This document shows, piece by piece, positions 772 through 59,585 of a stretch of 64,000 bases of DNA. Origin of the DNA: Dudresnaya verticillata (lineage: Eukaryota). The notes below the pieces were generated by a model, which was not told where the DNA came from, made no database searches, and worked only from the letters and a program-made list of their open reading frames with translations. The DNA is taken from the NCBI GenBank assembly GCA_977862235.1, contig OZ374565.1, forward strand, positions 2,418,001 through 2,482,000, given 5' to 3'. The first letter of the stretch is position 1. Each line of letters starts with the position of its first letter. Position numbers and translations under genes: made by a program.

Positions 772-892
772 ACATTCGGCCATACTACGCAGACATGCTC
801 CGTATCCCATCCCGAACTGCGAAGATAAGTCTCGTCAGGCTGGTTTAGTACTGAGGTGAGGGATCACTCTGGAATCGCCAGTGCCGAATGTT
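772..892 (+). rRNA. 5S rRNA gene, intact
   Basis: About 121 nt. 5' ACATTCGGC pairs with 3' GCCGAATGT (helix I). Conserved eukaryotic 5S motifs GGCCATAC, ATCCCATCCCGAACT, GAAG-TAAG, TTAGTACT and GTGA-GGGA-TCAC (GNRA loop D). Followed by a T-run. Confidence 0.96.
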
Positions 893-3189: not shown

Positions 3190-3278
3190 ACATTCGGCCA
3201 TACTACGCAGACATGCTCCGTATCCCATCCCGAACTGCGAAGATAAGTCTCGTCAGGCTGGTTTAGTACTGAGGTGAG
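3190..3278 (+). pseudogene. 5S rRNA 5' part (nt 1-89), interrupted by E1+E2
   Basis: 5S sequence stops after TAGTACTGAGGTGAG; element sequence TTCAACTTT follows. Confidence 0.95.
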
Positions 3279-3379
3279 TTCAACTTTATAACAGGTGACC
3301 ATATTCTAATATTTGTCGACGTACAATCTACTGTAGTATCACAACAAAGTTAAACCCCAACTCAAAACAACTTGCACAT

Positions 3380-6300
3380 CTACACCTCCTGTTGGATCCC
3401 TTCCATCAGGCACTTGACGTTGTTCTGCACCAGTCGCGCCGCGTGCCTGTGGAATAGAGCCGCTCGCGAAACACCGCGAGTTACCATGGCCCGAGAAGCC
3501 ACAGTATCCGCCAACTCTTGCATGTACTTGTGCGCCTCCGGGTGCCAGCCACCTAGTGTGGTCATCGGCACCGGCACAAGTCTTGCCCCCGGTCCGGCAG
3601 CCTGGATGAAGCCACGGTAAGTCCGCACCTTGTCAGCGTGGGCGTTCTTCAGCGTCCCTTGCGGGTTTGTTATGCAGCTGAGAATGCGTTGTTCTGACGA
3701 CAGTGGATGACTGATTGTGACGTCCAGGTAGTCCGTTCCTCCTTCTGTTCCAAGCGCCTTGATGTCCGGCCGATCCAGGTGAGCCCCCACAGGGCGGGGC
3801 TCCACAATCGGGGTGCGTGTCGCACGTTTCAGATCCGAAGCCAGCAGACGAACCTGAGAGTCGTGGCGCCACGACCGAGGAGATCCGCTGTTCCGCATGC
3901 CGTTCGGACAAATCAGCAGATGGTCGCCGTGAACATCCATCTTCTTCTTGCACCCGGCCCGAGGACACTCCGTGTCGGGTTCCAGCAGTGGAATCCGACA
4001 GTAGAATCGAAGCCATACGCGGTAGTCCCGATCCGCAATGTACGTCTTCATGCCTGGTGCCGGCTGGCACTTGAGCCAGTCCTTGGCGCCCGGCACGCCA
4101 AGGGAAGCTCGGAAAGCTTGAGTCCGCCTGTCCCCGAGCGGCAGCTCGGCCTGCACCTTCTTCAGTACCAACTGCGTCAAGTCCCGCTGGCGCGGGCACT
4201 CGTCGCTGTCGATCTTCTCCAGGTCCAGGGCATCCTCACTATGGCACTTGGCGCTCCAGTCTTCGTGCGCTTCTACTGCAAAAGGATCGTCAGAAAGAGC
4301 AGTGTTCACAGAAGCGGGTAAGATAGAACGCAGTAAGTTGCGGGTCAGTGAAAGGGACGCCAAAAACGCGCTCGAGTTCATGTCGCCAGCTCCCGAAATA
4401 CCGATTCCGAAGCTGGGCTCTTTCGTGCGCAGGGGAAGCTGAAGTTCGCGGAAGGTGTCCCTCGGTAGGACTCCTCCCACGAGCTTGCGCATGCAAGCCT
4501 CAATCTTCTGGTCGAAGAGCTCGGCGCCCTTCGCCGTGGCGGATGATGGAACTACTCGCAGCAGGTAGTTCAGCCGGCAGACTCCGGCACAGTTGCGGAG
4601 TAGAGTGATGGCCACGTGTAGGTCTTCTAGTCCCGAAATTGCGTCCAGCAGGGGCTGGATGGACTCGACATGGCCATTCACGCTCTCCTCCATGTAGTTC
4701 TGCGTTCCAATCGGAGCCTGAAGTACTGTAGTGCCTTCTCCGTAGCTCTGCCCAAGATCCGACGGGTAGGCAGCGCAGTCTTCTGGGTCGGGTGCAGTAG
4801 GCCACCAAACAGTACACTTGTCCATGCGCAGGTGGAAGCCATAGCCCTTAGCTTCCTCGGAGTCAAAGAAGGACAGAACCTTCCTGAGTACGGCGTGTTT
4901 CGCCACGATGACGCCGTCGTCCAGGTAGAACAGTGACAGCAGCAAGTTGTTCGCCCCCTCCGCTTGCTGATTGCGGCCCGAGCGCCGCAGGTCGGCGGTG
5001 AGTTCCTTCAACTGTTTGATCAGTGCCTGCAGCACCAAAGCAAACAGTAACGGCCCGAGCGGGTCACCTTGCTGTACACCAGTGACACTCCGCAGTAGAG
5101 TGTCACCCATCCACAGGTGCGGGCCCTCAGAGTCATAACAGTATCTGACCCACGGTAGTAGTTCAGGCATATGTCGGCGGACCTCCTTCATGAATGCTTT
5201 GCGGCTGACAAGGTTGAAGGCATTCTTCAAGTCCACTTGTAGCAACCCGTAGGACTTGTCATGGCCGTGAGACTTCTGCAGCTTCCGGACCGCGTGTACA
5301 ATGGCTTCTGTGCCGCCCGAGGTTGCGACCCCGAGCTGAAGCGGTTCGAGGTATGCCTTGGCCTTGGGAGCGACTCTGGTCATGAGCATAGAGCTCACGA
5401 GTCGTCGGATTGTCTCTCCTACAGCAATGGGGCGGACACCGCCGGTGCGCTTCTTCAGAGCCGTGAGAGGAGCGCTGGCAATCCAAGGCGACAGCTCCGC
5501 AGGTCCTGCGCCGCTGGCCAGCACGTTGACCATTTTGGTGAGCCCGCCAAGCAGGCCCGTGTGCTCGTGAGTGGTCGGGACTGAGAGCAGTTCCTGCAGA
5601 TGGGTCGGTGATAGTCCTGTGCCCCCCGAGGCCGAAGCCCGGGGGAACTTGGCAACTGCTTTTCGTACTTCGTCGGCTGTGAAAGGCACGAAGTCAGGGA
5701 TGGTCGGCAGCGGTTCGGACTGGTCAAGCTCGTGGTCCGCGTCGGTTTGCGGTACGGACTGTGGGTGCTTGTCCTTCATGGACTGTATCACAGAGTCTGT
5801 GGCTGGCGCGATTCCATCAGAGTCTAGAGCTGCTGCTGCCTTACTGTAGGCGCCCTCCTTTGCGAGGCGAAGGGCTCGTGAGGCGTTGATACGGCGTTGC
5901 TCTTCTGCGGAAGGCGCAGTCTGCTCACGGAATGTCGAGCCCTTCAAGGCCTCCTGCCATAGGGCGTCGTAATCCTTGAGTCCCCAGCGGCGGATTCGAT
6001 CGCGGAAGGTGCCGATCGAGGACGCAGAGGTTGACGCGCCGGCCCTTGCACTCGCCGCGGGAGGATTGGACAAGACGGCTGCTGGAAAAAGCAGGAATGC
6101 AGTGAGCTCTTTGGTGGCTTCCTGAGAGTTGTTTGCGTTCGTAAAAGCCCATACCGTCTTGGACAGTGCGTCGCGCACCTCTGCGCGGACGCGAGACGGT
6201 ATATGTGTGACCATAGGGATATGCGAGCGACAGATATCTTCGACCGCCGGCAGAAGCTGCCCTCCTGGACCCCGCGCAGCGTGTCGGGTTTGCGCAGTTG

Positions 6301-6868
6301 GTACCACTTGAGTAGCTGGTACCGGTGCAGGAGGCGGCTCCTGGCTGTCCGGGATTCGTCGCGGGGCTGGCAGGATATCGTCCGCCGGCTCGCCGTCCTC
6401 GGGTTGCGTCTCCGTGACCGCGTCCAGAGCAGGAGTCTGTGATGGCGCGGCTACAGTTTCTTCACGGCTCGGTGTCGTCAATTGGTTGGACGGGACGTGG
6501 GAGAACGCCGGAGTGCGAGTGGCGGGACATGCGCTGCAATTCTTGTACCGCATACTGTACATGCCTTCACTGTTCATGCGGGAGCTACAGTGGGTAGGCA
6601 TGTACTTGTTGTGAGTCACACAGTACCATACTCCATAGTCCAGGAGCTGCTGCTTGAGAGGCTCGATGTCGGTCCTCGTCGGTGGTCCTCGCCTGCCAGG
6701 AACATGCATCTTCCGCAGGTGCATGAGTAGCGCTTCTACAGTAGGCAGTGAGGACGACTGGCAGCCCAGAGGACAGCTGGTACTGTTTGTCGGGCGGTGT
6801 TTTGCCGAAGGCATAAAGCATGGAGAGAGCCATACCTTCGGCATGTCGGGGTGCTGCTGACCAATCAT
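3380..6868 (-). CDS. Retrotransposon protein, 1162 aa: C2H2 ZnF, reverse transcriptase, CCHC knuckle, restriction-like endonuclease
   Basis: C-x3-C-x13-H-x4-H at aa 32-55; RT motifs GVRPIAVGETIRRL, QLGV, DLKNAFN, GVQQGDPLGPLLF, YLDD; CPRAGC...HLLIC knuckle; RHD...E...RPDI...YLDVTI endonuclease. Confidence 0.95.
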   Translation of the reverse strand: MIGQQHPDMPKVWLSPCFMPSAKHRPTNSTSCPLGCQSSSLPTVEALLMHLRKMHVPGRRGPPTRTDIEPLKQQLLDYGVWYCVTHNKYMPTHCSSRMNSEGMYSMRYKNCSACPATRTPAFSHVPSNQLTTPSREETVAAPSQTPALDAVTETQPEDGEPADDILPAPRRIPDSQEPPPAPVPATQVVPTAQTRHAARGPGGQLLPAVEDICRSHIPMVTHIPSRVRAEVRDALSKTVWAFTNANNSQEATKELTAFLLFPAAVLSNPPAASARAGASTSASSIGTFRDRIRRWGLKDYDALWQEALKGSTFREQTAPSAEEQRRINASRALRLAKEGAYSKAAAALDSDGIAPATDSVIQSMKDKHPQSVPQTDADHELDQSEPLPTIPDFVPFTADEVRKAVAKFPRASASGGTGLSPTHLQELLSVPTTHEHTGLLGGLTKMVNVLASGAGPAELSPWIASAPLTALKKRTGGVRPIAVGETIRRLVSSMLMTRVAPKAKAYLEPLQLGVATSGGTEAIVHAVRKLQKSHGHDKSYGLLQVDLKNAFNLVSRKAFMKEVRRHMPELLPWVRYCYDSEGPHLWMGDTLLRSVTGVQQGDPLGPLLFALVLQALIKQLKELTADLRRSGRNQQAEGANNLLLSLFYLDDGVIVAKHAVLRKVLSFFDSEEAKGYGFHLRMDKCTVWWPTAPDPEDCAAYPSDLGQSYGEGTTVLQAPIGTQNYMEESVNGHVESIQPLLDAISGLEDLHVAITLLRNCAGVCRLNYLLRVVPSSATAKGAELFDQKIEACMRKLVGGVLPRDTFRELQLPLRTKEPSFGIGISGAGDMNSSAFLASLSLTRNLLRSILPASVNTALSDDPFAVEAHEDWSAKCHSEDALDLEKIDSDECPRQRDLTQLVLKKVQAELPLGDRRTQAFRASLGVPGAKDWLKCQPAPGMKTYIADRDYRVWLRFYCRIPLLEPDTECPRAGCKKKMDVHGDHLLICPNGMRNSGSPRSWRHDSQVRLLASDLKRATRTPIVEPRPVGAHLDRPDIKALGTEGGTDYLDVTISHPLSSEQRILSCITNPQGTLKNAHADKVRTYRGFIQAAGPGARLVPVPMTTLGGWHPEAHKYMQELADTVASRAMVTRGVSRAALFHRHAARLVQNNVKCLMEGIQQEV

Positions 6869-7542
6869 GGTTACAGCGCTGGGTAAGGTACCTGTAAAGG
6901 TCCTCTACAGTAGGTTCCCACGGGGCACAGACCTCCTAACCGGGACGCAAGCCTGTCGTCCGTCGTCAGTCTGTTCGGGACACCTCCAGAGGGTGCTACA
7001 GGTGGCCTTGCTGCGAGATGAAGGCCTCTTCGCAGCGTAGGGCGCGAGATCGCGCAATTTGCGCACGAGCTCGCGCAAAAGGGCGCGCGTGTTAGCGTTC
7101 GTGCGCGTAGACTTATCGGACGTTCCCTTCCCTGCCGCAGCTGAGAAGACTCTCTTCACTGCGGTCCTGTAACGCGCGGTACTTCTCGTTTGCACAAGCT
7201 CTCAATGGGGTCGCAGAACCACCGTTTACCTGTGAGTGCCCACAGGATTTTTGGCCTCCCCCGAAGGTTCGCTGGCAGGACGTTCGCTCGATCTTAGAAG
7301 GGGTGGTTTCAAAACAGGATCCACCAGGCTTAAGCCACGTTACCCCAACTTCGACGTTGCTTGGCACGTTTCTGCGATGAGCTTGTGGGTCACGAGCCGC
7401 CTACCACTCAAGGTCGAGGGTCTTTGGCGATTCCCACACTTGTAGGTCTCTCGGCACTTCCCGAAGGAAGATTTTACAGGACAAGCCTGGCCTTTACCAA
7501 TCTGTCAGTTGAAGGGTGTGAAACCCCTCTGTCGACAGTCCA

Positions 7543-7573
7543 CGGCAGCCTAGACAGAGTCTAGGCTGTGCCG
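7543..7573 (-). other. Strong hairpin in element 5' UTR (all copies retaining the 5' UTR)
   Basis: Perfect 10-bp inverted repeat CAGCCTAGAC-AGA-GTCTAGGCTG, extended by CGG/CCG after a 2-nt bulge. Confidence 0.7.
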
Positions 7574-7608
7574 GGTACAAGCAAAACGCGTACAGGGCCA
7601 GGGAAAGA

Positions 7609-7654
7609 AAGATAAGTCAGTGGGGCCCGGGCAAATTTCAAGGTGAGGGATCAC
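7609..7654 (+). promoter_or_regulatory. 5S internal control region mimic (Box A / IE / Box C) in the element 5' UTR
   Basis: AAGATAAGTC = 5S nt 51-60 and AGGTGAGGGATCAC = 5S nt 83-96, separated by 22 nt in both; GG of 5S nt 71-72 is also retained. Confidence 0.75.
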
Positions 7655-7688
7655 CTTAAAAGTAAGCGCAAAATAGGAAACGCGTGAC

Positions 7689-7740
7689 CGTCGGCGACGA
7701 CGGCGGCGGCGACGGCGGCGACGACGACGGCGTCGCGGCG
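7689..7740. repeat. GC-rich GAC/GGC trinucleotide tract in the element 5' UTR
   Basis: CGTCGGCGACGACGGCGGCGGCGACGGCGGCGACGACGACGGCGTCGCGGCG; present in the nine complete full-length copies (one SNP in E3). Confidence 0.8.
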
Positions 7741-7938
7741 CAGATCGGCGGCGCGGAAAGAGACAAAAGTAGACCGCGCTCGCCCGCCCGCGAAGGTGAA
7801 GGGCTGAAAAACCCCGCACCGACGCGCCGTCGCGCGCTCGAACAGGCGGCACCGCCGCCGAAAAGATCGGTGCAGAGCTTGTTGAGATATCCGCGAAACA
7901 AAAATTTCGGCAGATCGCTGAGGGAGTACTGAGGTGAG

Positions 7939-10900: not shown

Positions 10901-12590
10901 CGACCGCCGGCAGAAGCTGCCCTCCTGGACCCCGCGCAACGGGTGGGGTTTGCGCAGTTGGTACCTCTCGAGTAGCAGGTACCGGTGCAGGAGGCGGCTC
11001 CTGGCTGTCCGGGATTCGTCGCGGGGCTGGCAGGATATCGTCCGCTGGCTCGCCGTCCTCGGGTTGCGTCTCCGTGACCGCGTCCAGAGCAGGAGACTGT
11101 GATGGCGCGGCTACAGTTTCTTCACGGCTCGGTGTCGTCAATTGGTTGGACGGGACGTGGGAGAACGCCGGAGTGCGAGTAGCGGGACATGCGCTGCAAT
11201 TCTTGTACCGCATACTGTACATGCCTTCACTGTTCATGCGGGAGCTACAGTGGGTGGGCATGTACTTGTTGTGAGTCACACAGTACCATACTCCATAGTC
11301 CAGGAGCTGCTGCTTGAGAGGCTCGATGTCGGTCCTCGTCGGTGGTCCTCGCCTGCCAGGAACATGCATCTTCCGCAGGTGCATGAGTAGCGCTTCTACA
11401 GTAGGCAGTGAGGACGACTGGCAGCCCAGAGGACAGCTGGTACTGTTTGTCGGGCGGTGTTTTGCCGAAGGCATAAAGCATGGAGAGAGCCATACCTTCG
11501 GCATGTCGGGGTGCTGCTGACCAATCATGGTTACAGCGCTGGGTAAGGTACCTGTAAAGGTCCTCTACAGTAGGTTCCCACGGGGCACAGACCTCCTAAC
11601 CGGGACGCAAGCCTGTCGTCCGTCGTCAGTCTGTTCGGGACACCTCCAGAGGGTGCTACAGGTGGCCTTGCTGCGAGATGAGGGCCTCTTCGCAGCGTAG
11701 GGCGCGAGATCGCGCACTTTGCGCACGAGCTCGCGCAAAAGGGCGCGCGTGTTAGCGTTCGTGCGCGCAGAGTTATCGGACGTTCCCTTCCCTGCCGCAG
11801 CTGAGAAGACTCTCTTCACTGCGGTCCTGTAACGCGCGGTACTTCTCGTTTGCACAAGCTCTCAATGGGGTCGCAGAACCACCGTTTACCTGTGAGTGCC
11901 CACAGGATTTTTGGCCTCCCCCGAAGGTTCGCTGGCAGGACGTTCGCTCGATCTTAGAAGGGGTGGTTTCAAAACAGGATCCACCAGGCTTAAGCCACGT
12001 TACCCCAACTTCGACGTTGCTTGGCACGTTTCTGCGATGAGCTTGTGGGTCACGAGCCGCCTACCACTCAAGGTCGAGGGTCTTTGGCGATTCCCACACT
12101 TGTAGGTCTCTCGGCACTTCCCGAAGGAAGATTTTACAGGACAAGCCTGGCCTTTGCCAATCTGTCAGTTGAAGGGTGTGAAACCCCTCTGTCGACAGTC
12201 CACGGCAGCCTAGACAGAGTCTAGGCTGTGCCGGGTACAAGCAAAACGCGTACAGGGCCAGGGAAAGAAAGATAAGTCAGTGGGGCCCGGGCAAATTTCA
12301 AGGTGAGGGATCACCTTAAAAGTAAGCGCAAAATAGGAAACGCGTGACCGTCGGCGACGACGGCGGCGGCGACGGCGGCGACGACGACGGCGTCGCGGCG
12401 CAGATCGGCGGCGCGGAAAGAGACAAAAGTAGACCGCGCTCGCCCGCCCGCGAAGGTGAAGGGCTGAAAAACCCCGCACCGACGCGCCGTCGCGCGCTCG
12501 AACAGGCGGCACCGCCGCCGAAAAGATCGGTGCAGAACTTGCTGAGAAATCTCCGAAACAAAAAATTCGGCAGATCGCGAGGGGTCCTCC
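7939..12590 (-). mobile_element. E2: full-length copy, head-to-tail with E1
   Basis: Same 3' end after AGTACTGAGGTGAG; type-B 5' end ending in GAGGGGTCCTCC. Confidence 0.93.
8040..11528 (-). CDS. RT-RLE retrotransposon protein, 1162 aa (E2)
   Basis: Intact ORF with the same motifs as E1. Confidence 0.95.
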   Translation of the reverse strand: MIGQQHPDMPKVWLSPCFMPSAKHRPTNSTSCPLGCQSSSLPTVEALLMHLRKMHVPGRRGPPTRTDIEPLKQQLLDYGVWYCVTHNKYMPTHCSSRMNSEGMYSMRYKNCSACPATRTPAFSHVPSNQLTTPSREETVAAPSQSPALDAVTETQPEDGEPADDILPAPRRIPDSQEPPPAPVPATREVPTAQTPPVARGPGGQLLPAVEDICRSHIPMVTHIPSRVRAEVRDALSKTVWAFTNATNSQEATKELTAFLLFPAAVLSNPPAASARASASTSASSIGTFRDRIRRWGLKDYDALWQEALKGSTFREQTAPSAEEQRRINASRALRLAKEGAYSKAAAALDSDGIAPATDSVIQSMKDKHPQSVPQTDADHELDQSEPLPTMPDFVPFTADEVRKAVAKFPRASASGGTGLSPTHLQELLSVPTTHEHTGLLGGLTKMVNVLASGAGPAELSPWIASAPLTALKKRTGGVRPIAVGETIRRLVSSMLMTRVAPKAKAYLEPLQLGVATSGGTEAIVHAVRKLQKSHGHDKSYGLLQVDLKNAFNLVSRKAFMKEVRRHMPELLPWVRYCYDSEGPHLWMGDTLLRSVTGVQQGDPLGPLLFALVLQALIKQLKELTADLRRSGRNQQAEGANNLLLSLFYLDDGVIVAKHAVLRKVLSFFDSEEAKGYGFHLRMDKCTVWWPTAPDPEDCAAYPSDLGQSYGEGTTVLQAPIGTQNYMEESVNGHVESIQPLLDAISGLEDLHVAITLLRNCAGVCRLNYLLRVVPSSATAKGAELFDQKIEACMRKLVGGVLPRDTFRELQLPLRTKEPSFGIGISGAGDMNSSAFLASLSLTRNLLRSILPASVNTALSDDPFAVEAHEDWSAKCHSEDALDLEKIDSDECPRQRDLTRLVLKKVQAELPLGDRRTQAFRASLGVPGAKDWLKCQPAPGMKTYIADRDYRVWLRFYCRIPLLEPDTECPRAGCKKMMDVHGDHLLICPNGMRNSGSPRSWRHDSQVRLLASDLKRATRTPIVEPRPVGAHLDRPDIKALGTEGGTDYLDVTISHPLSSEQRILSCITNPQGTLKNAHADKVRTYRGFIQAAGPGARLVPVPMTTLGGWHPEAHKYMQELADTVASRAMVTRGVSRAALFHRHAARLVQNNVKCLMEGIQQEV

Positions 12591-12621
12591 AGTACTATAG
12601 TACTGAGGTGAGGGATCACTC

Positions 12622-12667
12622 AGTACTGAGGTGAGGGATCACTCTGGAATCGCCAGTGCCGAATGTT
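12622..12667 (+). pseudogene. 5S rRNA 3' part after E1+E2 (includes duplicated target)
   Basis: AGTACTGAGGTGAGGGATCACTCTGG...GCCGAATGT followed by the T-run. Confidence 0.93.
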
Positions 12668-13755: not shown

Positions 13756-13876
13756 ACATTCGGCCATACTACGCAGACATGCTCCGTATCCCATCCCGAA
13801 CTGCGAAGATAAGTCTCGTCAGGCTGGTTTAGTACTGAGGTGAGGGATCACTCTGGAATCGCCAGTGCCGAATGTT
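13756..13876 (+). rRNA. 5S rRNA gene, intact
   Basis: Identical to 772-892. Confidence 0.96.
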
Positions 13877-24000: not shown

Positions 24001-25750
24001 CGGCGCGGACGCGAGACGGTATATGTGTGACCATAGGGATATGCGAGCGACAGATGTCTTCGACCGCCGGCAGAAGCTGCCCTCCTGGACCCCGCGCAAC
24101 GGGTGGGGTTTGCGCAGTTGGTACCTCTCGAGTAGCAGGTACCGGTGCAGGAGGCGGCTCCTGGCTGTCCGGGATTCGTCGCGGGGCTGGCAGGATATCG
24201 TCCGCTGGCTCGCCGTCCTCGGGTTGCGTCTCCGTGACCGCGTCCAGAGCAGGAGACTGTGATGGCGCGGCTACAGTTTCTTCACGGCTCGGTGTCGTCA
24301 ATTGGTTGGACGGGACGTGGGAGAACGCCGGAGTGCGAGTAGCGGGACATGCGCTGCAATTCTTGTACCGCATACTGTACATGCCTTCACTGTTCATGCG
24401 GGAGCTACAGTGGGTGGGCATGTACTTGTTGTGAGTCACACAGTACCATACTCCATAGTCCAGGAGCTGCTGCTTGAGAGGCTCGATGTCGGTCCTCGTC
24501 GGTGGTCCTCGCCTGCCAGGAACATGCATCTTCCGCAGGTGCATGAGTAGCGCTTCTACAGTAGGCAGTGAGGACGACTGGCAGCCCAGAGGACAGCTGG
24601 TACTGTTTGTCGGGCGGTGTTTTGCCGAAGGCATAAAGCATGGAGAGAGCCATACCTTCGGCATGTCGGGGTGCTGCTGACCAATCATGGTTACAGCGCT
24701 GGGTAAGGTACCTGTAAAGGTCCTCTACAGTAGGTTCCCACGGGGCACAGGCCTCCTAACCGGGACGCAAGCCTGTCGTCCGTCGTCAGTCTGTTCGGGA
24801 CACCTCCAGAGGGTGCTACAGGTGGCCTTGCTGCGAGATGAGGGCCTCTTCGCAGCGTAGGGCGCGAGATCGCGCACTTTGCGCACGAGCTCGCGCAAAA
24901 GGGCGCGCGTGTTAGCGTTCGTGCGCGCAGAGTTATCGGACGTTCCCTTCCCTGCCGCAGCTGAGAAGACTCTCTTCACTGCGGTCCTGTAACGCGCGGT
25001 ACTTCTCGTTTGCACAAGCTCTCAATGGGGTCGCAGAACCACCGTTTACCTGTGAGTGCCCACAGGATTTTTGGCCTCCCCCGAAGGTTCGCTGGCAGGA
25101 CGTTCGCTCGATCTTAGAAGGGGTGGTTTCAAAACAGGATCCACCAGGCTTAAGCCACGTTACCCCAACTTCGACGTTGCTTGGCACGTTTCTGCGATGA
25201 GCTTGTGGGTCACGAGCCGCCTACCACTCAAGGTCGAGGGTCTTTGGCGATTCCCACACTTGTAGGTCTCTCGGCACTTCCCGAAGGAAGATTTTACAGG
25301 ACAAGCCTGGCCTTTACCAATCTGTCAGTTGAAGGGTGTGAAACCCCTCTGTCGACAGTCCACGGCAGCCTAGACAGAGTCTAGGCTGTGCCGGGTACAA
25401 GCAAAACGCGTACAGGGCCAGGGAAAGAAAGATAAGTCAGTGGGGCCCGGGCAAATTTCAAGGTGAGGGATCACCTTAAAAGTAAGCGCAAAATAGGAAA
25501 CGCGTGACCGTCGGCGACGACAGCGGCGGCGACGGCGGCGACGACGACGGCGTCGCGGCGCAGATCGGCGGCGCGGAAAGAGACAAAAGTAGACCGCGCT
25601 CGCCCGCCCGCGAAGGTGAAGGGCTGAAAAACCCCGCACCGACGCGCCGTCGCGCGCTCGAACAGGCGGCACCGCCGCCGAAAAGATCGGTGCAGAACTT
25701 GCTGAGAAATCTCCGAAACAAAAAATTCGGCAGATCGCGAGGGGTTCTCC
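21099..25750 (-). mobile_element. E3: full-length copy
   Basis: Same termini; type-B 5' end. Confidence 0.93.
21200..24688 (-). CDS. RT-RLE retrotransposon protein, 1162 aa (E3)
   Basis: Intact ORF. Confidence 0.95.
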   Translation of the reverse strand: MIGQQHPDMPKVWLSPCFMPSAKHRPTNSTSCPLGCQSSSLPTVEALLMHLRKMHVPGRRGPPTRTDIEPLKQQLLDYGVWYCVTHNKYMPTHCSSRMNSEGMYSMRYKNCSACPATRTPAFSHVPSNQLTTPSREETVAAPSQSPALDAVTETQPEDGEPADDILPAPRRIPDSQEPPPAPVPATREVPTAQTPPVARGPGGQLLPAVEDICRSHIPMVTHIPSRVRAEVRDALSKTVWAFTNTTNSQEATKELTAFLLFPAAVLSNPPAASARASASTSASSIGTFRDRIRRWGLKDYDALWQEALKGSTFREQTAPSAEEQRRINASRALRLAKEGAYSKAAAALDSDGIAPATDSVIQSMKDKHPQSVPQTDADHELDQSEPLPTMPDFVPFTADEVRKAVAKFPRASASGGTGLSPTHLQELLSVPTTHEHTGLLGGLTKMVNVLASGAGPAELSPWIASAPLTALKKRTGGVRPIAVGETIRRLVSSMLMTRVAPKAKAYLEPLQLGVATSGGTEAIVHAVRKLQKSHGHDKSYGLLQVDLKNAFNLVSRKAFMKEVRRHMPELLPWVRYCYDSEGPHLWMGDTLLRSVTGVQQGDPLGPLLFALVLQALIKQLKELTADLRRSGRNQQAEGANNLLLSLFYLDDGVIVAKHAVLRKVLSFFDSEEAKGYGFHLRMDKCTVWWPTAPDPEDCAAYPSDLGQSYGEGTTVLQAPIGTQNYMEESVNGHVESIQPLLDAISGLEDLHVAITLLRNCAGVCRLNYLLRVVPSSATAKGAELFDQKIEACMRKLVGGVLPRDTFRELQLPLRTKEPSFGIGISGAGDMNSSAFLASLSLTRNLLRSILPASVNTALSDDPFAVEAHEDWSAKCHSEDALDLEKIDSDECPRQRDLTRLVLKKVQAELPLGDRRTQAFRASLGVPGAKDWLKCQPAPGMKTYIADRDYRVWLRFYCRIPLLEPDTECPRAGCKKMMDVHGDHLLICPNGMRNSGSPRSWRHDSQVRLLASDLKRATRTPIVEPRPVGAHLDRPDIKALGTEGGTDYLDVTISHPLSSEQRILSCITNPQGTLKNAHADKVRTYRGFIQAAGPGARLVPVPMTTLGGWHPEAHKYMQELADTVASRAMVTRGVSRAALFHRHAARLVQNNVKCLMEGIQQEV

Positions 25751-25782
25751 GGGTACTGAGGTGAGGACTGAGGTCAGGTGAG

Positions 25783-28700: not shown

Positions 28701-30434
28701 CGGTATATGTGTGACCATAGGGATATGCGAGCGACAGATGTCTTCGACCGCCGGCAGAAGCTGCCCTCCTGGACCCCGCGCAACGGGTGGGGTTTGCGCA
28801 GTTGGTACCTCTCGAGTAGCAGGTACCGGTGCAGGAGGCGGCTCCTGGCTGTCCGGGATTCGTCGCGGGGCTGGCAGGATATCGTCCGCTGGCTCGCCGT
28901 CCTCGGGTTGCGTCTCCGTGACCGCGTCCAGAGCAGGAGACTGTGATGGCGCGGCTACAGTTTCTTCACGGCTCGGTGTCGTCAATTGGTTGGACGGGAC
29001 GTGGGAGAACGCCGGAGTGCGAGTAGCGGGACATGCGCTGCAATTCTTGTACCGCATACTGTACATGCCTTCACTGTTCATGCGGGAGCTACAGTGGGTG
29101 GGCATGTACTTGTTGTGAGTCACACAGTACCATACTCCATAGTCCAGGAGCTGCTGCTTGAGAGGCTCGATGTCGGTCCTCGTCGGTGGTCCTCGCCTGC
29201 CAGGAACATGCATCTTCCGCAGGTGCATGAGTAGCGCTTCTACAGTAGGCAGTGAGGACGACTGGCAGCCCAGAGGACAGCTGGTACTGTTTGTCGGGCG
29301 GTGTTTTGCCGAAGGCATAAAGCATGGAGAGAGCCATACCTTCGGCATGTCGGGGTGCTGCTGACCAATCATGGTTACAGCGCTGGGTAAGGTACCTGTA
29401 AAGGTCCTCTACAGTAGGTTCCCACGGGGCACAGGCCTCCTAACCGGGACGCAAGCCTGTCGTCCGTCGTCAGTCTGTTCGGGACACCTCCAGAGGGTGC
29501 TACAGGTGGCCTTGCTGCGAGATGAGGGCCTCTTCGCAGCGTAGGGCGCGAGATCGCGCACTTTGCGCACGAGCTCGCGCAAAAGGGCGCGCGTGTTAGC
29601 GTTCGTGCGCGCAGAGTTATCGGACGTTCCCTTCCCTGCCGCAGCTGAGAAGACTCTCTTCACTGCGGTCCTGTAACGCGCGGTACTTCTCGTTTGCACA
29701 AGCTCTCAATGGGGTCGCAGAACCACCGTTTACCTGTGAGTGCCCACAGGATTTTTGGCCTCCCCCGAAGGTTCGCTGGCAGGACGTTCGCTCGATCTTA
29801 GAAGGGGTGGTTTCAAAACAGGATCCACCAGGCTTAAGCCACGTTACCCCAACTTCGACGTTGCTTGGCACGTTTCTGCGATGAGCTTGTGGGTCACGAG
29901 CCGCCTACCACTCAAGGTCGAGGGTCTTTGGCGATTCCCACACTTGTAGGTCTCTCGGCACTTCCCGAAGGAAGATTTTACAGGACAAGCCTGGCCTTTA
30001 CCAATCTGTCAGTTGAAGGGTGTGAAACCCCTCTGTCGACAGTCCACGGCAGCCTAGACAGAGTCTAGGCTGTGCCGGGTACAAGCAAAACGCGTACAGG
30101 GCCAGGGAAAGAAAGATAAGTCAGTGGGGCCCGGGCAAATTTCAAGGTGAGGGATCACCTTAAAAGTAAGCGCAAAATAGGAAACGCGTGACCGTCGGCG
30201 ACGACGGCGGCGGCGACGGCGGCGACGACGACGGCGTCGCGGCGCAGATCGGCGGCGCGGAAAGAGACAAAAGTAGACCGCGCTCGCCCGCCCGCGAAGG
30301 TGAAGGGCTGAAAAACCCCGCACCGACGCGCCGTCGCGCGCTCGAACAGGCGGCACCGCCGCCGAAAAGATCGGTGCAGAACTTGCTGAGAAATCTCCGA
30401 AACAAAAAATTCGGCAGATCGCGAGGGGTTCTCC
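25783..30434 (-). mobile_element. E4: full-length copy
   Basis: Same termini; type-B 5' end. Confidence 0.93.
25884..29372 (-). CDS. RT-RLE retrotransposon protein, 1162 aa (E4)
   Basis: Intact ORF. Confidence 0.95.
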   Translation of the reverse strand: MIGQQHPDMPKVWLSPCFMPSAKHRPTNSTSCPLGCQSSSLPTVEALLMHLRKMHVPGRRGPPTRTDIEPLKQQLLDYGVWYCVTHNKYMPTHCSSRMNSEGMYSMRYKNCSACPATRTPAFSHVPSNQLTTPSREETVAAPSQSPALDAVTETQPEDGEPADDILPAPRRIPDSQEPPPAPVPATREVPTAQTPPVARGPGGQLLPAVEDICRSHIPMVTHIPSRVRAEVRDALSKTVWAFTNTTNSQEATKELTAFLLFPAAVLSNPPAASARASASTSASSIGTFRDRIRRWGLKDYDALWQEALKGSTFREQTAPSAEEQRRINASRALRLAKEGAYSKAAAALDSDGIAPATDSVIQSMKDKHPQSVPQTDADHELDQSEPLPTMPDFVPFTADEVRKAVAKFPRASASGGTGLSPTHLQELLSVPTTHEHTGLLGGLTKMVNVLASGAGPAELSPWIASAPLTALKKRTGGVRPIAVGETIRRLVSSMLMTRVAPKAKAYLEPLQLGVATSGGTEAIVHAVRKLQKSHGHDKSYGLLQVDLKNAFNLVSRKAFMKEVRRHMPELLPWVRYCYDSEGPHLWMGDTLLRSVTGVQQGDPLGPLLFALVLQALIKQLKELTADLRRSGRNQQAEGANNLLLSLFYLDDGVIVAKHAVLRKVLSFFDSEEAKGYGFHLRMDKCTVWWPTAPDPEDCAAYPSDLGQSYGEGTTVLQAPIGTQNYMEESVNGHVESIQPLLDAISGLEDLHVAITLLRNCAGVCRLNYLLRVVPSSATAKGAELFDQKIEACMRKLVGGVLPRDTFRELQLPLRTKEPSFGIGISGAGDMNSSAFLASLSLTRNLLRSILPASVNTALSDDPFAVEAHEDWSAKCHSEDALDLEKIDSDECPRQRDLTRLVLKKVQAELPLGDRRTQAFRASLGVPGAKDWLKCQPAPGMKTYIADRDYRVWLRFYCRIPLLEPDTECPRAGCKKMMDVHGDHLLICPNGMRNSGSPRSWRHDSQVRLLASDLKRATRTPIVEPRPVGAHLDRPDIKALGTEGGTDYLDVTISHPLSSEQRILSCITNPQGTLKNAHADKVRTYRGFIQAAGPGARLVPVPMTTLGGWHPEAHKYMQELADTVASRAMVTRGVSRAALFHRHAARLVQNNVKCLMEGIQQEV

Positions 30435-30469
30435 AGTCTCAGTCTGAGGTGAGGGAGTACTCAGGTGAG

Positions 30470-33400: not shown

Positions 33401-35108
33401 CCATAGGGATATGCGAGCGACAGATATCTTCGACCGGCGGCAGAAGCTGCCCTCCTGGACCCCGCGCAACGGGTGGGGTTTGCGCAGTTGGTACCTCTCG
33501 AGTAGCAGGTACCGGTGCAGGAGGCGGCTCCTGGCTGTCCGGGATTCGTCGCGGGGCTGGCAGGATATCGTCCGCTGGCTCGCCGTCCTCGGGTTGCGTC
33601 TCCGTGACCGCGACCAGAGCAGGAGTCTGTGATGGCGCGGCTACAGTTTCTTCACGGCTCGGTGTCGTCAATTGGTTGGACGGGACGTGGGAGAACGCCG
33701 GAGTGCGAGTGGCGGGACATGCGCTGCAATTCTTGTACCGCATACTGTACATGCCTTCACTGTTCATGCGGGAGCTACAGTGCGTAGGCATGTACTTGTT
33801 GTGAGTCACACAGTACCATACTCCATAGTCCAGGAGCTGCTGCTTGAGAGACTCGATGTCGGTCCTCGTCGGTGGTCCTCGCCTGCCAGGAACATGCATC
33901 TTCCGCAGGTGCATGAGTAGCGCTTCTACAGTAGGCAGTGAGGACGACTGGCAGCCCAGAGGACAGCTGGTACTGTTTGTCGGGCGGTGTTTTGCCAAAG
34001 GCATAAAGCATGGAGAGAGCCATACCTTCGGCATGTCGGGGTGCTGCTGACCAATCATGGTTACAGCGCTGGGTAAGGTACCTGTAAAGGTCCTCTACAG
34101 TAGGTTCCCACGGGGCACAGACCTCCTAACCGGGACGCAAGCCTGTCGTCCGTCGTCAGTCTGTTCGGGACACCTCCAGAGGGTGCTACAGGTGGCCTTG
34201 CTGCGAGATGAAGGCCTCTTCGCAGCGTAGGGCGCGAGATCGCGCAATTTGCGCACGAGCTCGCGCAAAAGGGCGCGCGTGTTAGCGTTCGTGCGCGTAG
34301 ACTTATCGGACGTTCCCTTCCCTGCCGCAGCTGAGAAGACTCTCTTCACTGCGGTCCTGTAACGCGCGGTACTTCTCGTTTGCACAAGCTCTCAATGGGG
34401 TCGCAGAACCACCGTTTACCTGTGAGTGCCCGCAGGATTTTTGGCCTCCCCCGAAGGTTCGCTGGCAGGACGTTCGCTCGATCTTAGAAGGGGTGGTTTC
34501 AAAACAGGATCCACCAGGCTTAAGCCACGTTACCCCAACTTCGACGTTGCTTGGCACGTTTCTGCGATGAGCTTGTGGGTCACGAGCCGCCTACCACTCA
34601 AGGTCGAGGGTCTTTGGCGATTCCCACACTTGTAGGTCTCTCGGCACTTCCCGAAGGAAGATTTTACAGGACAAGCCTGGCCTTTACCAATCTGTCAGTT
34701 GAAGGGTGTGAAACCCCTCTGTCGACAGTCCACGGCAGCCTAGACAGAGTCTAGGCTGTGCCGGGTACAAGCAAAACGCGTACAGGGCCAGGGAAAGAAA
34801 GACAAGTCAGTGGGGCCCGGGCAAATTTCAAGGTGAGGGATCACCTTAAAAGTAAGCGCAAAATAGGAAACGCGTGACCGTCGGCGACGACGGCGGCGGC
34901 GACGGCGGCGACGACGACGGCGTCGCGGCGCAGATCGGCGGCGCGGAAAGAGACAAAAGTAGACCGCGCTCGCCCGCCCGCGAAGGTGAAGGGCTGAAAA
35001 ACCCCGCACCGACGCGCCGTCGCGCGCTCGAACAGGCGGCACCGCCGCCGAAAAGATCGGTGCAGAACTTGTTGAGATATCCGCGAAACAAAAATTTCGG
35101 CAGATCGC
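30470..35108 (-). mobile_element. E5: full-length copy (variant subfamily)
   Basis: Same termini; 1-bp shorter 3' UTR; type-A 5' end. Confidence 0.93.
30570..34058 (-). CDS. RT-RLE retrotransposon protein, 1162 aa (E5)
   Basis: Intact ORF with diagnostic residues APTAKA, FIKE, WVTY, LWRS, VIMAK. Confidence 0.95.
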   Translation of the reverse strand: MIGQQHPDMPKVWLSPCFMPLAKHRPTNSTSCPLGCQSSSLPTVEALLMHLRKMHVPGRRGPPTRTDIESLKQQLLDYGVWYCVTHNKYMPTHCSSRMNSEGMYSMRYKNCSACPATRTPAFSHVPSNQLTTPSREETVAAPSQTPALVAVTETQPEDGEPADDILPAPRRIPDSQEPPPAPVPATREVPTAQTPPVARGPGGQLLPPVEDICRSHIPMVTHIPSRVRAEVRDALSKTVWAFTNATNSQEATKELTAFLLFPAAVLSNPPAASARASASTSASSIGTFRDRIRRWGLKDYDALWQQALKGSTFREQTAPSAEEQRRINASRALRLAKEGAYSKAAAALDSDGIAPATDSVIQSMKDKHPQSVPQTDADHELDQSEPLPTMPDFVPFTADEVRKAVAKFPRASASGGTGLSPTHLQELLSVPTTHEHTGLLGGLTKMVNVLASGAGPAELSPWIASAPLTALKKRTGGVRPIAVGETIRRLVSSMLMTRVAPTAKAYLEPLQLGVATSGGTEAIVHAVRKLQKSHGHDKSYGLLQVDLKNAFNLVSRKAFIKEVRRHMPELLPWVTYCYDSEGPHLWMGDTLLRSVTGVQQGDPLGPLLFALVLQALIKQLKELTADLWRSGRNQQAEGANNLLLSLFYLDDGVIMAKHAVLRKVLSFFDSEEAKGYGFHLRMDKCTVWWPTAPDPEDCAAYPSDLGQSYGEGTTVLQAPIGTQNYMEESVNGHVESIQPLLDAISGLEDLHVAITLLRNCAGVCRLNYLLRVVPSSATAKGAELFDQKIEVCMRKLVGGVLPRDTFRELQLPLRTKEPSFGIGISGAGDMNSSAFLASLSLTRNLLRSILPASVNTALSDDPFAVEAHEDWSAKCHSEDALDLEKIDSDECPRQRDLTRLVLKKVQAELPLGDRRTQAFRASLGAPGAKDWLKCQPAPGMKTYIADRDYRVWLRFYCRIPLLEPDTECPRAGCKKMMDVHGDHLLICPNGMRNSGSPRSWRHDSQVRLLASDLKRATRTPIVEPRPVGAHLDRPDIKALGTEGGTDYLDVTISHPLSSEQRILSCITNPQGTLKNAHADKVRTYRGFIQAAGPGARLVPVPMTTLGGWHPEAHKYMQELADTVASRAMVTRGVSRAALFHRHAARLVQNNVKCLMEGIQQEV

Positions 35109-35123
35109 TCAGTCTGAGGTGAG

Positions 35124-38100: not shown

Positions 38101-39775
38101 GCTGCCCTCCTGGACCCCGCGCAACGGGTGGGGTTTGCGCAGTTGGTACCTCTCGAGTAGCAGGTACCGGTGCAGGAGGCGGCTCCTGGCTGTCCGGGAT
38201 TCGTCGCGGGGCTGGCAGGATATCGTCCGCTGGCTCGCCGTCCTCGGGTTGCGTCTCCGTGACCGCGTCCAGAGCAGGAGACTGTGATGGCGCGGCTACA
38301 GTTTCTTCACGGCTCGGTGTCGTCAATTGGTTGGACGGGACGTGGGAGAACGCCGGAGTGCGAGTAGCGGGACATGCGCTGCAATTCTTGTACCGCATAC
38401 TGTACATGCCTTCACTGTTCATGCGGGAGCTACAGTGGGTGGGCATGTACTTGTTGTGAGTCACACAGTACCATACTCCATAGTCCAGGAGCTGCTGCTT
38501 GAGAGGCTCGATGTCGGTCCTCGTCGGTGGTCCTCGCCTGCCAGGAACATGCATCTTCCGCAGGTGCATGAGTAGCGCTTCTACAGTAGGCAGTGAGGAC
38601 GACTGGCAGCCCAGAGGACAGCTGGTACTGTTTGTCGGGCGGTGTTTTGCCGAAGGCATAAAGCATGGAGAGAGCCATACCTTCGGCATGTCGGGGTGCT
38701 GCTGACCAATCATGGTTACAGCGCTGGGTAAGGTACCTGTAAAGGTCCTCTACAGTAGGTTCCCACGGGGCACAGACCTCCTAACCGGGACGCAAGCCTG
38801 TCGTCCGTCGTCAGTCTGTTCGGGACACCTCCAGAGGGTGCTACAGGTGGCCTTGCTGCGAGATGAGGGCCTCTTCGCAGCGTAGGGCGCGAGATCGCGC
38901 ACTTTGCGCACGAGCTCGCGCAAAAGGGCGCGCGTGTTAGCGTTCGTGCGCGCAGAGTTATCGGACGTTCCCTTCCCTGCCGCAGCTGAGAAGACTCTCT
39001 TCACTGCGGTCCTGTAACGCGCGGTACTTCTCGTTTGCACAAGCTCTCAATGGGGTCGCAGAACCACCGTTTACCTGTGAGTGCCCACAGGATTTTTGGC
39101 CTCCCCCGAAGGTTCGCTGGCAGGACGTTCGCTCGATCTTAGAAGGGGTGGTTTCAAAACAGGATCCACCAGGCTTAAGCCACGTTACCCCAACTTCGAC
39201 GTTGCTTGGCACGTTTCTGCGATGAGCTTGTGGGTCACGAGCCGCCTACCACTCAAGGTCGAGGGTCTTTGGCGATTCCCACACTTGTAGGTCTCTCGGC
39301 ACTTCCCGAAGGAAGATTTTACAGGACAAGCCTGGCCTTTACCAATCTGTCAGTTGAAGGGTGTGAAACCCCTCTGTCGACAGTCCACGGCAGCCTAGAC
39401 AGAGTCTAGGCTGTGCCGGGTACAAGCAAAACGCGTACAGGGCCAGGGAAAGAAAGATAAGTCAGTGGGGCCCGGGCAAATTTCAAGGTGAGGGATCACC
39501 TTAAAAGTAAGCGCAAAATAGGAAACGCGTGACCGTCGGCGACGACGGCGGCGGCGACGGCGGCGACGACGACGGCGTCGCGGCGCAGATCGGCGGCGCG
39601 GAAAGAGACAAAAGTAGACCGCGCTCGCCCGCCCGCGAAGGTGAAGGGCTGAAAAACCCCGCACCGACGCGCCGTCGCGCGCTCGAACAGGCGGCACCGC
39701 CGCCGAAAAGATCGGTGGAGAACTTGCTGAGAAATCTCCGAAACAAAAAATTCGGCAGATCGCGAGGGGTTCTCC
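35124..39775 (-). mobile_element. E6: full-length copy
   Basis: Same termini; type-B 5' end. Confidence 0.93.
35225..38713 (-). CDS. RT-RLE retrotransposon protein, 1162 aa (E6)
   Basis: Intact ORF. Confidence 0.95.
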   Translation of the reverse strand: MIGQQHPDMPKVWLSPCFMPSAKHRPTNSTSCPLGCQSSSLPTVEALLMHLRKMHVPGRRGPPTRTDIEPLKQQLLDYGVWYCVTHNKYMPTHCSSRMNSEGMYSMRYKNCSACPATRTPAFSHVPSNQLTTPSREETVAAPSQSPALDAVTETQPEDGEPADDILPAPRRIPDSQEPPPAPVPATREVPTAQTPPVARGPGGQLLPAVEDICRSHIPMVTHIPSRVRAEVRDALSKTVWAFTNATNSQEATKELTAFLLFPAAVLSNPPAASARASASTSASSIGTFRDRIRRWGLKDYDALWQEALKGSTFREQTAPSAEEQRRINASRALRLAKEGAYSKAAAALDSDGIAPATDSVIQSMKDKHPQSVPQTDADHELDQSEPLPTMPDFVPFTADEVRKAVAKFPRASASGGTGLSPTHLQELLSVPTTHEHTGLLGGLTKMVNVLASGAGPAELSPWIASAPLTALKKRTGGVRPIAVGETIRRLVSSMLMTRVAPKAKAYLEPLQLGVATSGGTEAIVHAVRKLQKSHGHDKSYGLLQVDLKNAFNLVSRKAFMKEVRRHMPELLPWVRYCYDSEGPHLWMGDTLLRSVTGVQQGDPLGPLLFALVLQALIKQLKELTADLRRSGRNQQAEGANNLLLSLFYLDDGVIVAKHAVLRKVLSFFDSEEAKGYGFHLRMDKCTVWWPTAPDPEDCAAYPSDLGQSYGEGTTVLQAPIGTQNYMEESVNGHVESIQPLLDAISGLEDLHVAITLLRNCAGVCRLNYLLRVVPSSATAKGAELFDQKIEACMRKLVGGVLPRDTFRELQLPLRTKEPSFGIGISGAGDMNSSAFLASLSLTRNLLRSILPASVNTALSDDPFAVEAHEDWSAKCHSEDALDLEKIDSDECPRQRDLTRLVLKKVQAELPLGDRRTQAFRASLGVPGAKDWLKCQPAPGMKTYIADRDYRVWLRFYCRIPLLEPDTECPRAGCKKMMDVHGDHLLICPNGMRNSGSPRSWRHDSQVRLLASDLKRATRTPIVEPRPVGAHLDRPDIKALGTEGGTDYLDVTISHPLSSEQRILSCITNPQGTLKNAHADKVRTYRGFIQAAGPGARLVPVPMTTLGGWHPEAHKYMQELADTVASRAMVTRGVSRAALFHRHAARLVQNNVKCLMEGIQQEV

Positions 39776-45479: not shown

Positions 45480-45498
45480 TCGTCAGTACTGAGGTGAG

Positions 45499-47821: not shown

Positions 47822-47823
47822 CG

Positions 47824-53681: not shown

Positions 53682-53692
53682 TGAGGGAGTAC

Positions 53693-59550: not shown

Positions 59551-59585
59551 AGTCTCAGTCTGAGGTGAGGGAGTACTCAGGTGAG

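What the first reader, a model, noticed from the sequence alone, without database searches (positions are those of the whole stretch)
7609..7657. Element 5' UTR carries a correctly spaced mimic of the 5S internal promoter (Box A, GG, Box C)
Seen: element AAGATAAGTC-N22-AGGTGAGGGATCAC aligns without gaps to 5S 822-831 and 854-867, with the same 22-nt spacing. Only 6 of the 22 intervening nt match, but they include the GG at 5S nt 71-72. The flanks show no evident 5S similarity. It is oriented like the 5S genes, antisense to the element, and occurs in all ten copies retaining this region (also 12269, 25429, 30113, 34799, 39454, 44138, 53372, 59229, 63915). Known: Box A (~50-64), intermediate element (~67-72) and Box C (~80-97) form the TFIIIA/TFIIIC-bound type-1 Pol III promoter. 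Inference: retaining just these boxes suggests the element recruits TFIIIA, replacing the site it destroys, to stay in open 5S chromatin, support its own promoter, or make an antisense Pol III RNA starting near 7559. Caveat: E5/E12 have one Box A change and E10 has one Box C change.
Basis: partly seen in the sequence, partly recalled or inferred. Interest (0 to 1): 0.9.

Follow-up and report, generated by a model that had tools for sequence, protein, structure and literature searches.

The report
Retrotransposon carries a backwards 5S promoter
A jumping gene that inserts into 5S ribosomal RNA genes carries, backwards in its own leader, two exact pieces of the 5S internal promoter at their natural spacing, which likely lets it bind the host's 5S transcription factors, though binding and function are untested.

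Summary
A 4.65-kb non-LTR retrotransposon (RT plus restriction-like endonuclease, CRE-like) sits antisense in 5S genes, cut after 5S nt 89. Its 5' UTR (7609-7654) matches the host 5S at nt 51-60 (10/10) and 83-96 (14/14) without gaps; 0 of 3000 shuffles reach this, and the middle (6/22) and flanks (15/74) are at chance level. The blocks cover most of Box A and Box C and carry the host's letter at all 7 positions where it departs from the Rfam consensus. The GG 'intermediate element' is not beyond chance. Best reading (0.5): a captured internal control region kept as a TFIIIA/TFIIIC docking site, as in Cassandra, Ajax and SINE3, but backwards, so it cannot make the element's RNA. New complications: Box C lies in an 11-bp hairpin of the element RNA and is centred on the cut site; the host's -31 TATA-like box is missing; two young mutations hit the blocks. 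No relative with flanking 5S DNA and no RNA data could be obtained, so selection on the boxes across species and function remain untested.

The parts
7609..7618 (+). Box A block, identical to host 5S nt 51-60
   Evidence: 10/10
7619..7640 (+). 22-nt middle, same length as in 5S, sequence at chance level; GG at 7629-7630; the loop-E/target bases AGTACT are lost
   Evidence: 6/22; no change among 10 copies
7641..7654 (+). Box C block, identical to host 5S nt 83-96; 7 nt on each side of the position where the element cuts
   Evidence: 14/14; cut after nt 89 in 12 of 12 junctions
7636..7661 (-). Predicted 11-bp hairpin of the element-sense RNA that encloses the Box C block (one U-G pair that forms only on this strand)
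   Evidence: random flanks as stable in 511 of 20000
7546..7568 (.). Perfect 10-bp inverted repeat, 3-nt loop; its right arm begins at 7559, the position equivalent to 5S +1
3279..7924 (-). Full-length element copy E1 (one of 12 copies in the window, 10 with an intact ORF)
3380..6868 (-). Single ORF, 1162 aa from first ATG: C2H2 finger, RT (PF00078), CCHC knuckle and restriction-like endonuclease
6869..7924 (-). About 1-kb 5' UTR holding the motif; GC-rich (64-74%) at 7700-7899, likely internal Pol II promoter (inferred)
3190..3278 (+). Interrupted 5S gene, nt 1-89, at the element's 3' end
7925..7938 (+). Target-site duplication (5S nt 76-89) between E1 and E2
772..891 (+). Intact host 5S rRNA gene used as reference (1209-bp unit; TTTAAATA at -31)
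12269..12314 (+). Motif in E2, exact
25429..25474 (+). Motif in E3, exact
30113..30158 (+). Motif in E4, exact
34799..34844 (+). Motif in E5, one change in the Box A block
39454..39499 (+). Motif in E6, exact
44138..44183 (+). Motif in E7, exact
53372..53417 (+). Motif in E10, one change in the Box C block that also breaks a hairpin pair
59229..59274 (+). Motif in E11, exact
63915..63960 (+). Motif in E12, same Box A change as E5

Best explanation
The element's 5' UTR holds two exact blocks of the host 5S internal control region in natural register, likely captured from its own target and likely kept by selection as a DNA docking site for host TFIIIA and TFIIIC. Origin (inferred): the 5' junctions of this element repeatedly copy pieces of the 5S target, some across the cut, so one longer copy could have been internalised; everything then decayed except the bases the factors read. 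Function (inferred): the site faces against the element, so it cannot make the element's RNA; it most likely marks each copy as 5S-like chromatin and acts as a TFIIIC-type boundary between the element body and the GC-rich promoter in the first 250 nt, with a weak antisense Pol III transcript from about 7559 as a possible by-product or brake. Shown: sequence, register, host-specific letters, orientation, junction copying. Not shown: binding, transcription, benefit.
For: 24/24 in register, 0 of 3000 shuffles. Middle and flanks at chance, so not uniform decay. With box limits from PMC3215682 (passage) and a 2-nt offset (1 nt from the Rfam alignment; the second recalled) the blocks cover 9 of 12 Box A and 10 of 11 Box C positions. 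At all 7 block positions where the host differs from the Rfam consensus the element has the host's letter, while RNA-level conserved motifs (loop C, two of three capital letters of the loop-E AGuA) are lost. TFIIIA fingers 1-3 read Box C with high affinity, Box A is the low-affinity part, TSS lies about 50 bp before Box A, and TFIIIC-only sites act as barriers (PMC12409998, passages). Same pattern (boxes kept, between-box decay, no indels) in Cassandra (PMC10853983, passages) and Ajax (PMC10886601, passages). Junctions hold 1-3 partial target copies, up to nt 75-98. None of 57 lineage-defining changes falls in 7243-7876 (scan-corrected 0.014).
Against: IE match is 3 of 6 and chance-level, though finger 5 reads the IE. 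No TATA-like box at -31, which the host gene has. Two young changes fall in the 24 block bases (2 of 8 E5/E10 differences, p about 7e-4, chosen after the fact), so inserted copies are not being purged for it. The Box C block is embedded in a stronger hairpin than in the 5S gene (-11.4 against -3.6 kcal/mol on the element-sense strand), which a DNA-binding factor does not need. Box C alone is rebuilt by the target-site duplication at 2 of 3 5S-facing junctions. The low divergence of 7243-7876 covers 630 nt and may come from exchange between copies, which are mosaic. TFIIIA in this host was not verified (no genome; no paper).
Confidence: 0.5

Rival explanations
1. The blocks work for the element's own machinery: in the element RNA they are complementary to the 5S sense strand, so they could pair with the target DNA (or 5S rRNA) during integration, or the DNA copy could be a two-part binding site for the element's protein (autoregulation), in the way R2 reads an upstream motif and the cut site at fixed distance.
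For: The Box C block is 7+7 nt around the cut, and its left edge (nt 83) equals the shortest target duplication (4 of 8 tandem junctions, 2 independent types). On the element RNA the Box A complement is predicted unpaired (8 of 10 bases at 0.8 or more) and the Box C complement forms a hairpin with a strand-specific U-G pair. 7480-7924 folds with z -5.0. R2Bm uses two motifs at fixed spacing, -34 to -22 and -6 to +1 (PMC10499050, passages).
Against: The Box C complement is locked in the stem (unpaired only in the 4-nt loop). RNA pairing does not need a 22-nt register. Box A lies on the primer side of the cut, opposite to the R2 upstream motif. Junctions E3|E4 and E4|E5 keep 5S letters past the cut although an element now follows, so later copies likely inserted where Box A was absent (inferred order). 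Hairpin extension is only modestly unusual (511 of 20000 on this strand, 940 on either); the opposite strand folds as well (z -4.8) and 3 other of 23 tiles reach z -4.4 to -5.1. No copy is inserted into or truncated at the motif (10 of 10).
Confidence: 0.25
2. A relic without present function: an old 5' junction, or the head of a SINE3-like element inserted backwards, whose boxes were shaped earlier or patched by conversion from the neighbouring 5S genes, and which now rides along.
For: Junction copying of target sequence is frequent. Two young mutations hit the blocks and none the middle. An 8-nt direct repeat flanks the motif (7584, 7678) and a possibly older copy lies 153 nt away (43 of 1000 shuffles). 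SINE3 heads keep boxes and lose upstream sequence (PMC10886601, passage).
Against: A middle decayed to chance beside 24/24 identity with the present host gene cannot come from uniform decay. No junction copy reaches left of nt 75, so Box A is not captured routinely. No SINE tail or free SINE copy in the window (only 64 kb seen).
Confidence: 0.22
3. Chance similarity.
For: A single exact run of 14 or more arises in 10 of 3000 shuffles; the Box C core is self-complementary.
Against: Two blocks on one diagonal summing to 24: 0 of 3000, largest 20; 113 chance hits of the 14-mer in viral contigs never have more than 6 of 10 Box A matches in register.
Confidence: 0.01

Closest known systems
Cassandra and Ajax (non-autonomous LTR elements with a 5S internal control region; PMC10853983, PMC10886601, passages read)
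   Same: A mobile element keeps Box A and Box C at fixed spacing while sequence between and around them diverges; Cassandra follows its host's C-box changes.
   Different: Those are non-autonomous LTR elements that use (Cassandra) or are thought to use (Ajax) the promoter in sense to make their own RNA, keep a core of about 70 nt (Cassandra), and do not target 5S genes. Here the carrier is an autonomous non-LTR element, the site is antisense and internal, reduced to 24 nt, and copies the very box the element cuts.
SINE3 (5S-derived SINEs; as described in PMC10886601 and PMC10946416, passages)
   Same: 5S-derived promoter boxes kept, upstream part diverged.
   Different: SINE3 has the promoter at its 5' end in sense and encodes no protein.
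Mutsu (zebrafish; PMC5340908, passages) and Dada-5S (fish DNA transposon; PMC8869645, passages)
   Same: Sequence-specific insertion inside 5S genes.
   Different: Mutsu has two ORFs and inserts about 20 nt from the 5' end (its APE endonuclease is recalled); Dada is a DNA transposon. No internal promoter copy appeared in the passages read. This element has one ORF with a restriction-like endonuclease and cuts in Box C.
CRE-group RLE elements (CRE1/2, SLACS, MoTeR, FoTeR, Cnl1; PMC12857005, passages)
   Same: One ORF of about 1160 aa with N-terminal C2H2 finger, RT and a C-terminal CCHC-RHD-E-RPD-D endonuclease motif; site-specific insertion in a repeated target.
   Different: Targets there are telomeres (read) or spliced-leader genes (recalled); no 5S-targeting member was found in my searches; clade placement was not tested with reference sequences.
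Extra-TFIIIC (ETC) sites and tRNA-gene barriers (PMC12409998, passages)
   Same: Proposed working mode: Pol III factor binding without productive transcription, acting as a boundary.
   Different: ETC sites are B-box based and TFIIIA-independent; this would be a TFIIIA-dependent version carried by a transposon.

Membership tests
Type 1 Pol III promoter (5S internal control region) | Box A | tested here: met
   9 of 12 positions, contiguous (numbering offset partly recalled)
Type 1 Pol III promoter (5S internal control region) | Intermediate element | tested here: inconclusive
   3 of 6 positions, in a G-rich middle at chance identity
Type 1 Pol III promoter (5S internal control region) | Box C | tested here: met
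   10 of 11 positions plus 4 more downstream
Type 1 Pol III promoter (5S internal control region) | Native spacing between boxes | tested here: met
   22 nt in all 10 copies
Type 1 Pol III promoter (5S internal control region) | Upstream TATA-like element as in the host 5S gene (common, not universal) | tested here: not met
   TTTAAATA at -31 in the gene, none on this strand in the element
Type 1 Pol III promoter (5S internal control region) | TFIIIA/TFIIIC binding and a Pol III transcript | not testable with these tools
   no genome, ChIP or RNA run available
Cassandra / Ajax (TRIMp3) | LTRs, non-autonomous | tested here: not met
   no LTRs; intact RT-RLE ORF in 10 of 12 copies
Cassandra / Ajax (TRIMp3) | 5S promoter in sense, able to make the element RNA | tested here: not met
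   antisense; 14 runs of 4 or more T on the sense strand
Cassandra / Ajax (TRIMp3) | Boxes kept, between-box sequence free, boxes follow host | tested here: inconclusive
   pattern met in this host; cross-species tracking could not be tested
SINE3 | 5S head at the 5' end of a short non-coding element | tested here: not met
   internal, 270 nt from the 5' end, antisense, in a coding element
CRE-group RLE non-LTR retrotransposon | Single ORF with RT and C-terminal CCHC + restriction-like endonuclease motif | tested here: met
   PF00078 1.2e-16; motif at residue 980 onward fits the SLACS/CRE pattern with 1-3 residue wider spacers; best PDB hits are R2 proteins
CRE-group RLE non-LTR retrotransposon | Site-specific insertion with target-site duplication | tested here: met
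   12 of 12 3' junctions after 5S nt 89; duplications of 7-14 nt
CRE-group RLE non-LTR retrotransposon | RT phylogeny groups with named CRE elements | not tested
   no named reference sequences were at hand; the tree holds unnamed relatives only

The most novel reading that the evidence does not exclude
The element RNA carries a built-in, two-part guide: an exposed complement of Box A and a hairpin-caged complement of the cut site pair with the 5S target strand during integration, making this an RNA-assisted target-recognition step in a non-LTR retrotransposon, reprogrammable by changing 24 bases.
Probability: 0.08. Interest if true: 0.92.

Novelty: new variant of a known kind. Interest (0 to 1): 0.62.

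Why it matters
If TFIIIA/TFIIIC bind, this is an autonomous retrotransposon that both cuts the 5S promoter and carries a minimal copy of it for a purpose other than making its own RNA. That offers a direct test of how site-specific elements stay expressed inside Pol III gene arrays, and a natural dissection of which 24 bases of a type 1 promoter matter. The element itself, a restriction-like-endonuclease element targeting Box C of 5S genes in antisense, did not appear in my literature searches and is a compact candidate for site-specific insertion studies. If the blocks act at RNA level it would touch the open question of how such elements form their 5' junction.

Tried and rejected
No whole genome is held, so other subfamilies and host TFIIIA could not be searched. 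Sequencing runs: no RNA holder listed; 2 runs with shares 0.06 and 0.05; laid, they gave only short pieces and none covers the motif. Related loci: 80 kept of 516 from a metagenome scan that stopped at 19 of 64 parts, 3 from genome contigs, 0 from viral contigs. No 5S gene in 19 of these 83 loci scanned with Rfam, none in all 83 by blastn and nhmmer; best in-register score 16 of 24. In a quick tree (careful search unfinished, 44 rows) these loci fall on other branches than the query's nearest proteins P0002-P0004, whose DNA could not be fetched, so this is no test of the motif's conservation. Whole-record search of 5 loci was not possible. Rfam at E up to 10 finds no ribozyme or other family in 6800-7940 beyond one chance hit. 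No B box in the 5' UTR. The 103-aa ORF over the E1/E2 junction starts in the neighbour and is incidental. Earlier scan findings: three look-ups, nothing. Paper searches with no hit; PMC2566860 (passages) and PMC4640811 (passages) gave only background. No supplements were read, Repbase is not searchable here, and the family may be catalogued there.

Full report
Setting. The window is a 5S rDNA array: 8 intact genes and 4 interrupted 5' halves in a 1209-bp unit. Twelve copies of a 4.65-kb element lie in it on the minus strand, ten with an intact ORF. The protein has a C2H2 finger, an RT (PF00078) and a CCHC plus restriction-like endonuclease motif that fits the SLACS/CRE pattern quoted in PMC12857005 (passages) with slightly wider spacers; its best solved relatives are R2 proteins. 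All 12 element 3' ends abut 5S nt 89; tandem junctions keep 7-14 nt of target. The 5S sequence looks red-algal to me; that is recalled and comes from no call.

Observation. The motif is 7609-7654. It matches 5S nt 51-60 at 10/10 and nt 83-96 at 14/14 on one diagonal, with 6/22 between and 15/74 outside. No shuffle of 3000 reaches 24 (largest 20); 55 spacer windows reach at most 14. Scattering the same number of matches at random over a captured 46-mer gives two runs summing to 24 in 170 of 1,000,000 trials, over a whole gene in 0 of 300,000. Ten copies carry it, seven exactly, but they form three lineages about 1% apart and include a duplicated block (E4-E5 = E11-E12). The GG is weak: 8 of 22 middle bases are G.

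What the blocks correspond to. With Xenopus limits (A 50-61, IE 67-72, C 80-90; PMC3215682, passage) and an offset of 2 (1 from the Rfam alignment, the other recalled), the element keeps 9 of 12, 3 of 6 and 10 of 11 positions. Seven of the 24 block positions differ between the host gene and the Rfam consensus, and the element has the host letter at all seven; motifs conserved for the RNA's sake outside the boxes are lost. That is the pattern of Cassandra, where boxes and spacing are kept and the parts between vary (PMC10853983, passages), and of Ajax (PMC10886601, passages). TFIIIA fingers 1-3 read Box C, finger 5 the IE, and the start lies about 50 bp before Box A (PMC12409998, passages).

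What it cannot be. It faces away from the element's RNA, whose strand has 14 runs of four or more T, so it is not the element's promoter in the Cassandra sense. An antisense start at 7559 would be a G at the first base of the right arm of a 10-bp palindrome, but the host's TTTAAATA at -31 is absent, and the first T4 lies 398-447 nt away in 2 copies, 2.6-3.7 kb away in 7, and beyond the window in 1. Hence docking of TFIIIA/TFIIIC without much transcription, as at extra-TFIIIC barrier sites, is my preferred mode; it is an inference. The site lies between the ORF and the GC-rich first 250 nt.

Origin. 5' junctions hold one to three partial copies of target nt 75-98, some running across the cut. 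This gives a route for capture, though no present junction reaches Box A. The same junctions show 5S letters past the cut where an element now follows, which suggests that tandem arrays grew at the rebuilt 5'-junction site without Box A (inferred; recombination could blur the order). Box C is rebuilt intact at 2 of 3 junctions that face a 5S 3' half, so the insertion destroys the register, not Box C.

Results against the preferred reading. The Box C block sits in an 11-bp inverted repeat that is more stable on the element-sense strand than the gene's own (-11.4 against -3.6 kcal/mol); random flanks do as well in 511 of 20000 (940 on either strand), so the signal is modest. The block is centred on the cut and starts at the edge of the shortest duplication. 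The Box A complement is predicted unpaired in the element RNA, and 7480-7924 folds at z -5.0, but the other strand folds at -4.8 and 3 other of 23 tiles fold as well. R2 reads two target motifs at fixed distance (PMC10499050, passages), though on the other side of the cut. Among copies, 2 of 80 variable columns fall in the 24 block bases and none in the middle; they are 2 of the 8 differences between E5 and E10. Both are young and the lineage ancestor had intact blocks, and none of 57 lineage-defining changes lies in 7243-7876 (scan-corrected 0.014), but this gives no block-specific evidence of current selection.

Comparative test. Not achieved. 378 relatives were found, the best 120 listed, the nearest at 51-56%, without DNA. 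The 83 loci with DNA show no 5S gene or motif and lie on other branches of a quick tree. No RNA run was listed.

Novelty. 5S-targeting elements are known (Mutsu, PMC5340908; Dada-5S, PMC8869645), and 5S promoters in elements are known (table in PMC10946416, passages). My searches (open-access library only, no supplements, no Repbase) showed no restriction-like-endonuclease element targeting 5S and no autonomous element with an internal antisense copy of the promoter it cuts. Verdict: real feature, new variant of a known kind; TFIIIA/TFIIIC site 0.5, element-machinery role 0.25, relic 0.22; interest 0.62.

Noticed in passing
window 25731-25782, 30415-30469, 12571-12644: 5' junctions are built of one to three imperfect restarts on target nt 75-98, a clear record of repeated template jumps; two keep 5S letters past the cut although an element follows, pointing to tandem growth at the rebuilt site.
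   Followed up: partly
window 25783-35109 and 54899-64000: E4-E5 and E11-E12 are a duplicated block with the same junction; E3|E4 and E6|E7 junctions are also identical.
   Followed up: partly
window 44464-45498 and 45499-47823: Two shortened copies (E8, E9) still end in CAGATCG like the full-length 5' end, as if the RT jumped to the RNA's 5' tip by microhomology.
   Followed up: no
window 7755-7802: Possible older, decayed second copy of the motif in the same register, 153 nt away (28/48 ungapped); marginal, 43 of 1000 local shuffles.
   Followed up: yes
window 7877-7920: Two 5'-end haplotypes that do not follow the lineage tree; both fold into a terminal hairpin in different registers.
   Followed up: partly
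window 7584-7591 and 7678-7685: An 8-nt direct repeat AAACGCGT flanks the motif; ACGCGT occurs only there in the element and once in the 5S spacer.
   Followed up: no
run X1 laid on window 12622 and 13806-13809: The run holds another organism's 5S with CT at nt 59-60, where host and motif both have TC (consensus of 4 contigs), and contigs in which 5S likeness starts at about nt 51-54 after unrelated sequence: a hint of promoter-only 5S pieces elsewhere, not tied to an element.
   Followed up: partly
window 53674-53690: At E10's 5' junction 5S nt 82-93 are deleted, so Box C is not rebuilt there; this is also the copy with the Box C change in its motif.
   Followed up: no
proteins P0005, P0014; locus L002 5100-5700: Some relatives carry PF02902, recalled as a Ulp1-type protease domain, absent from this element.
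   Followed up: no
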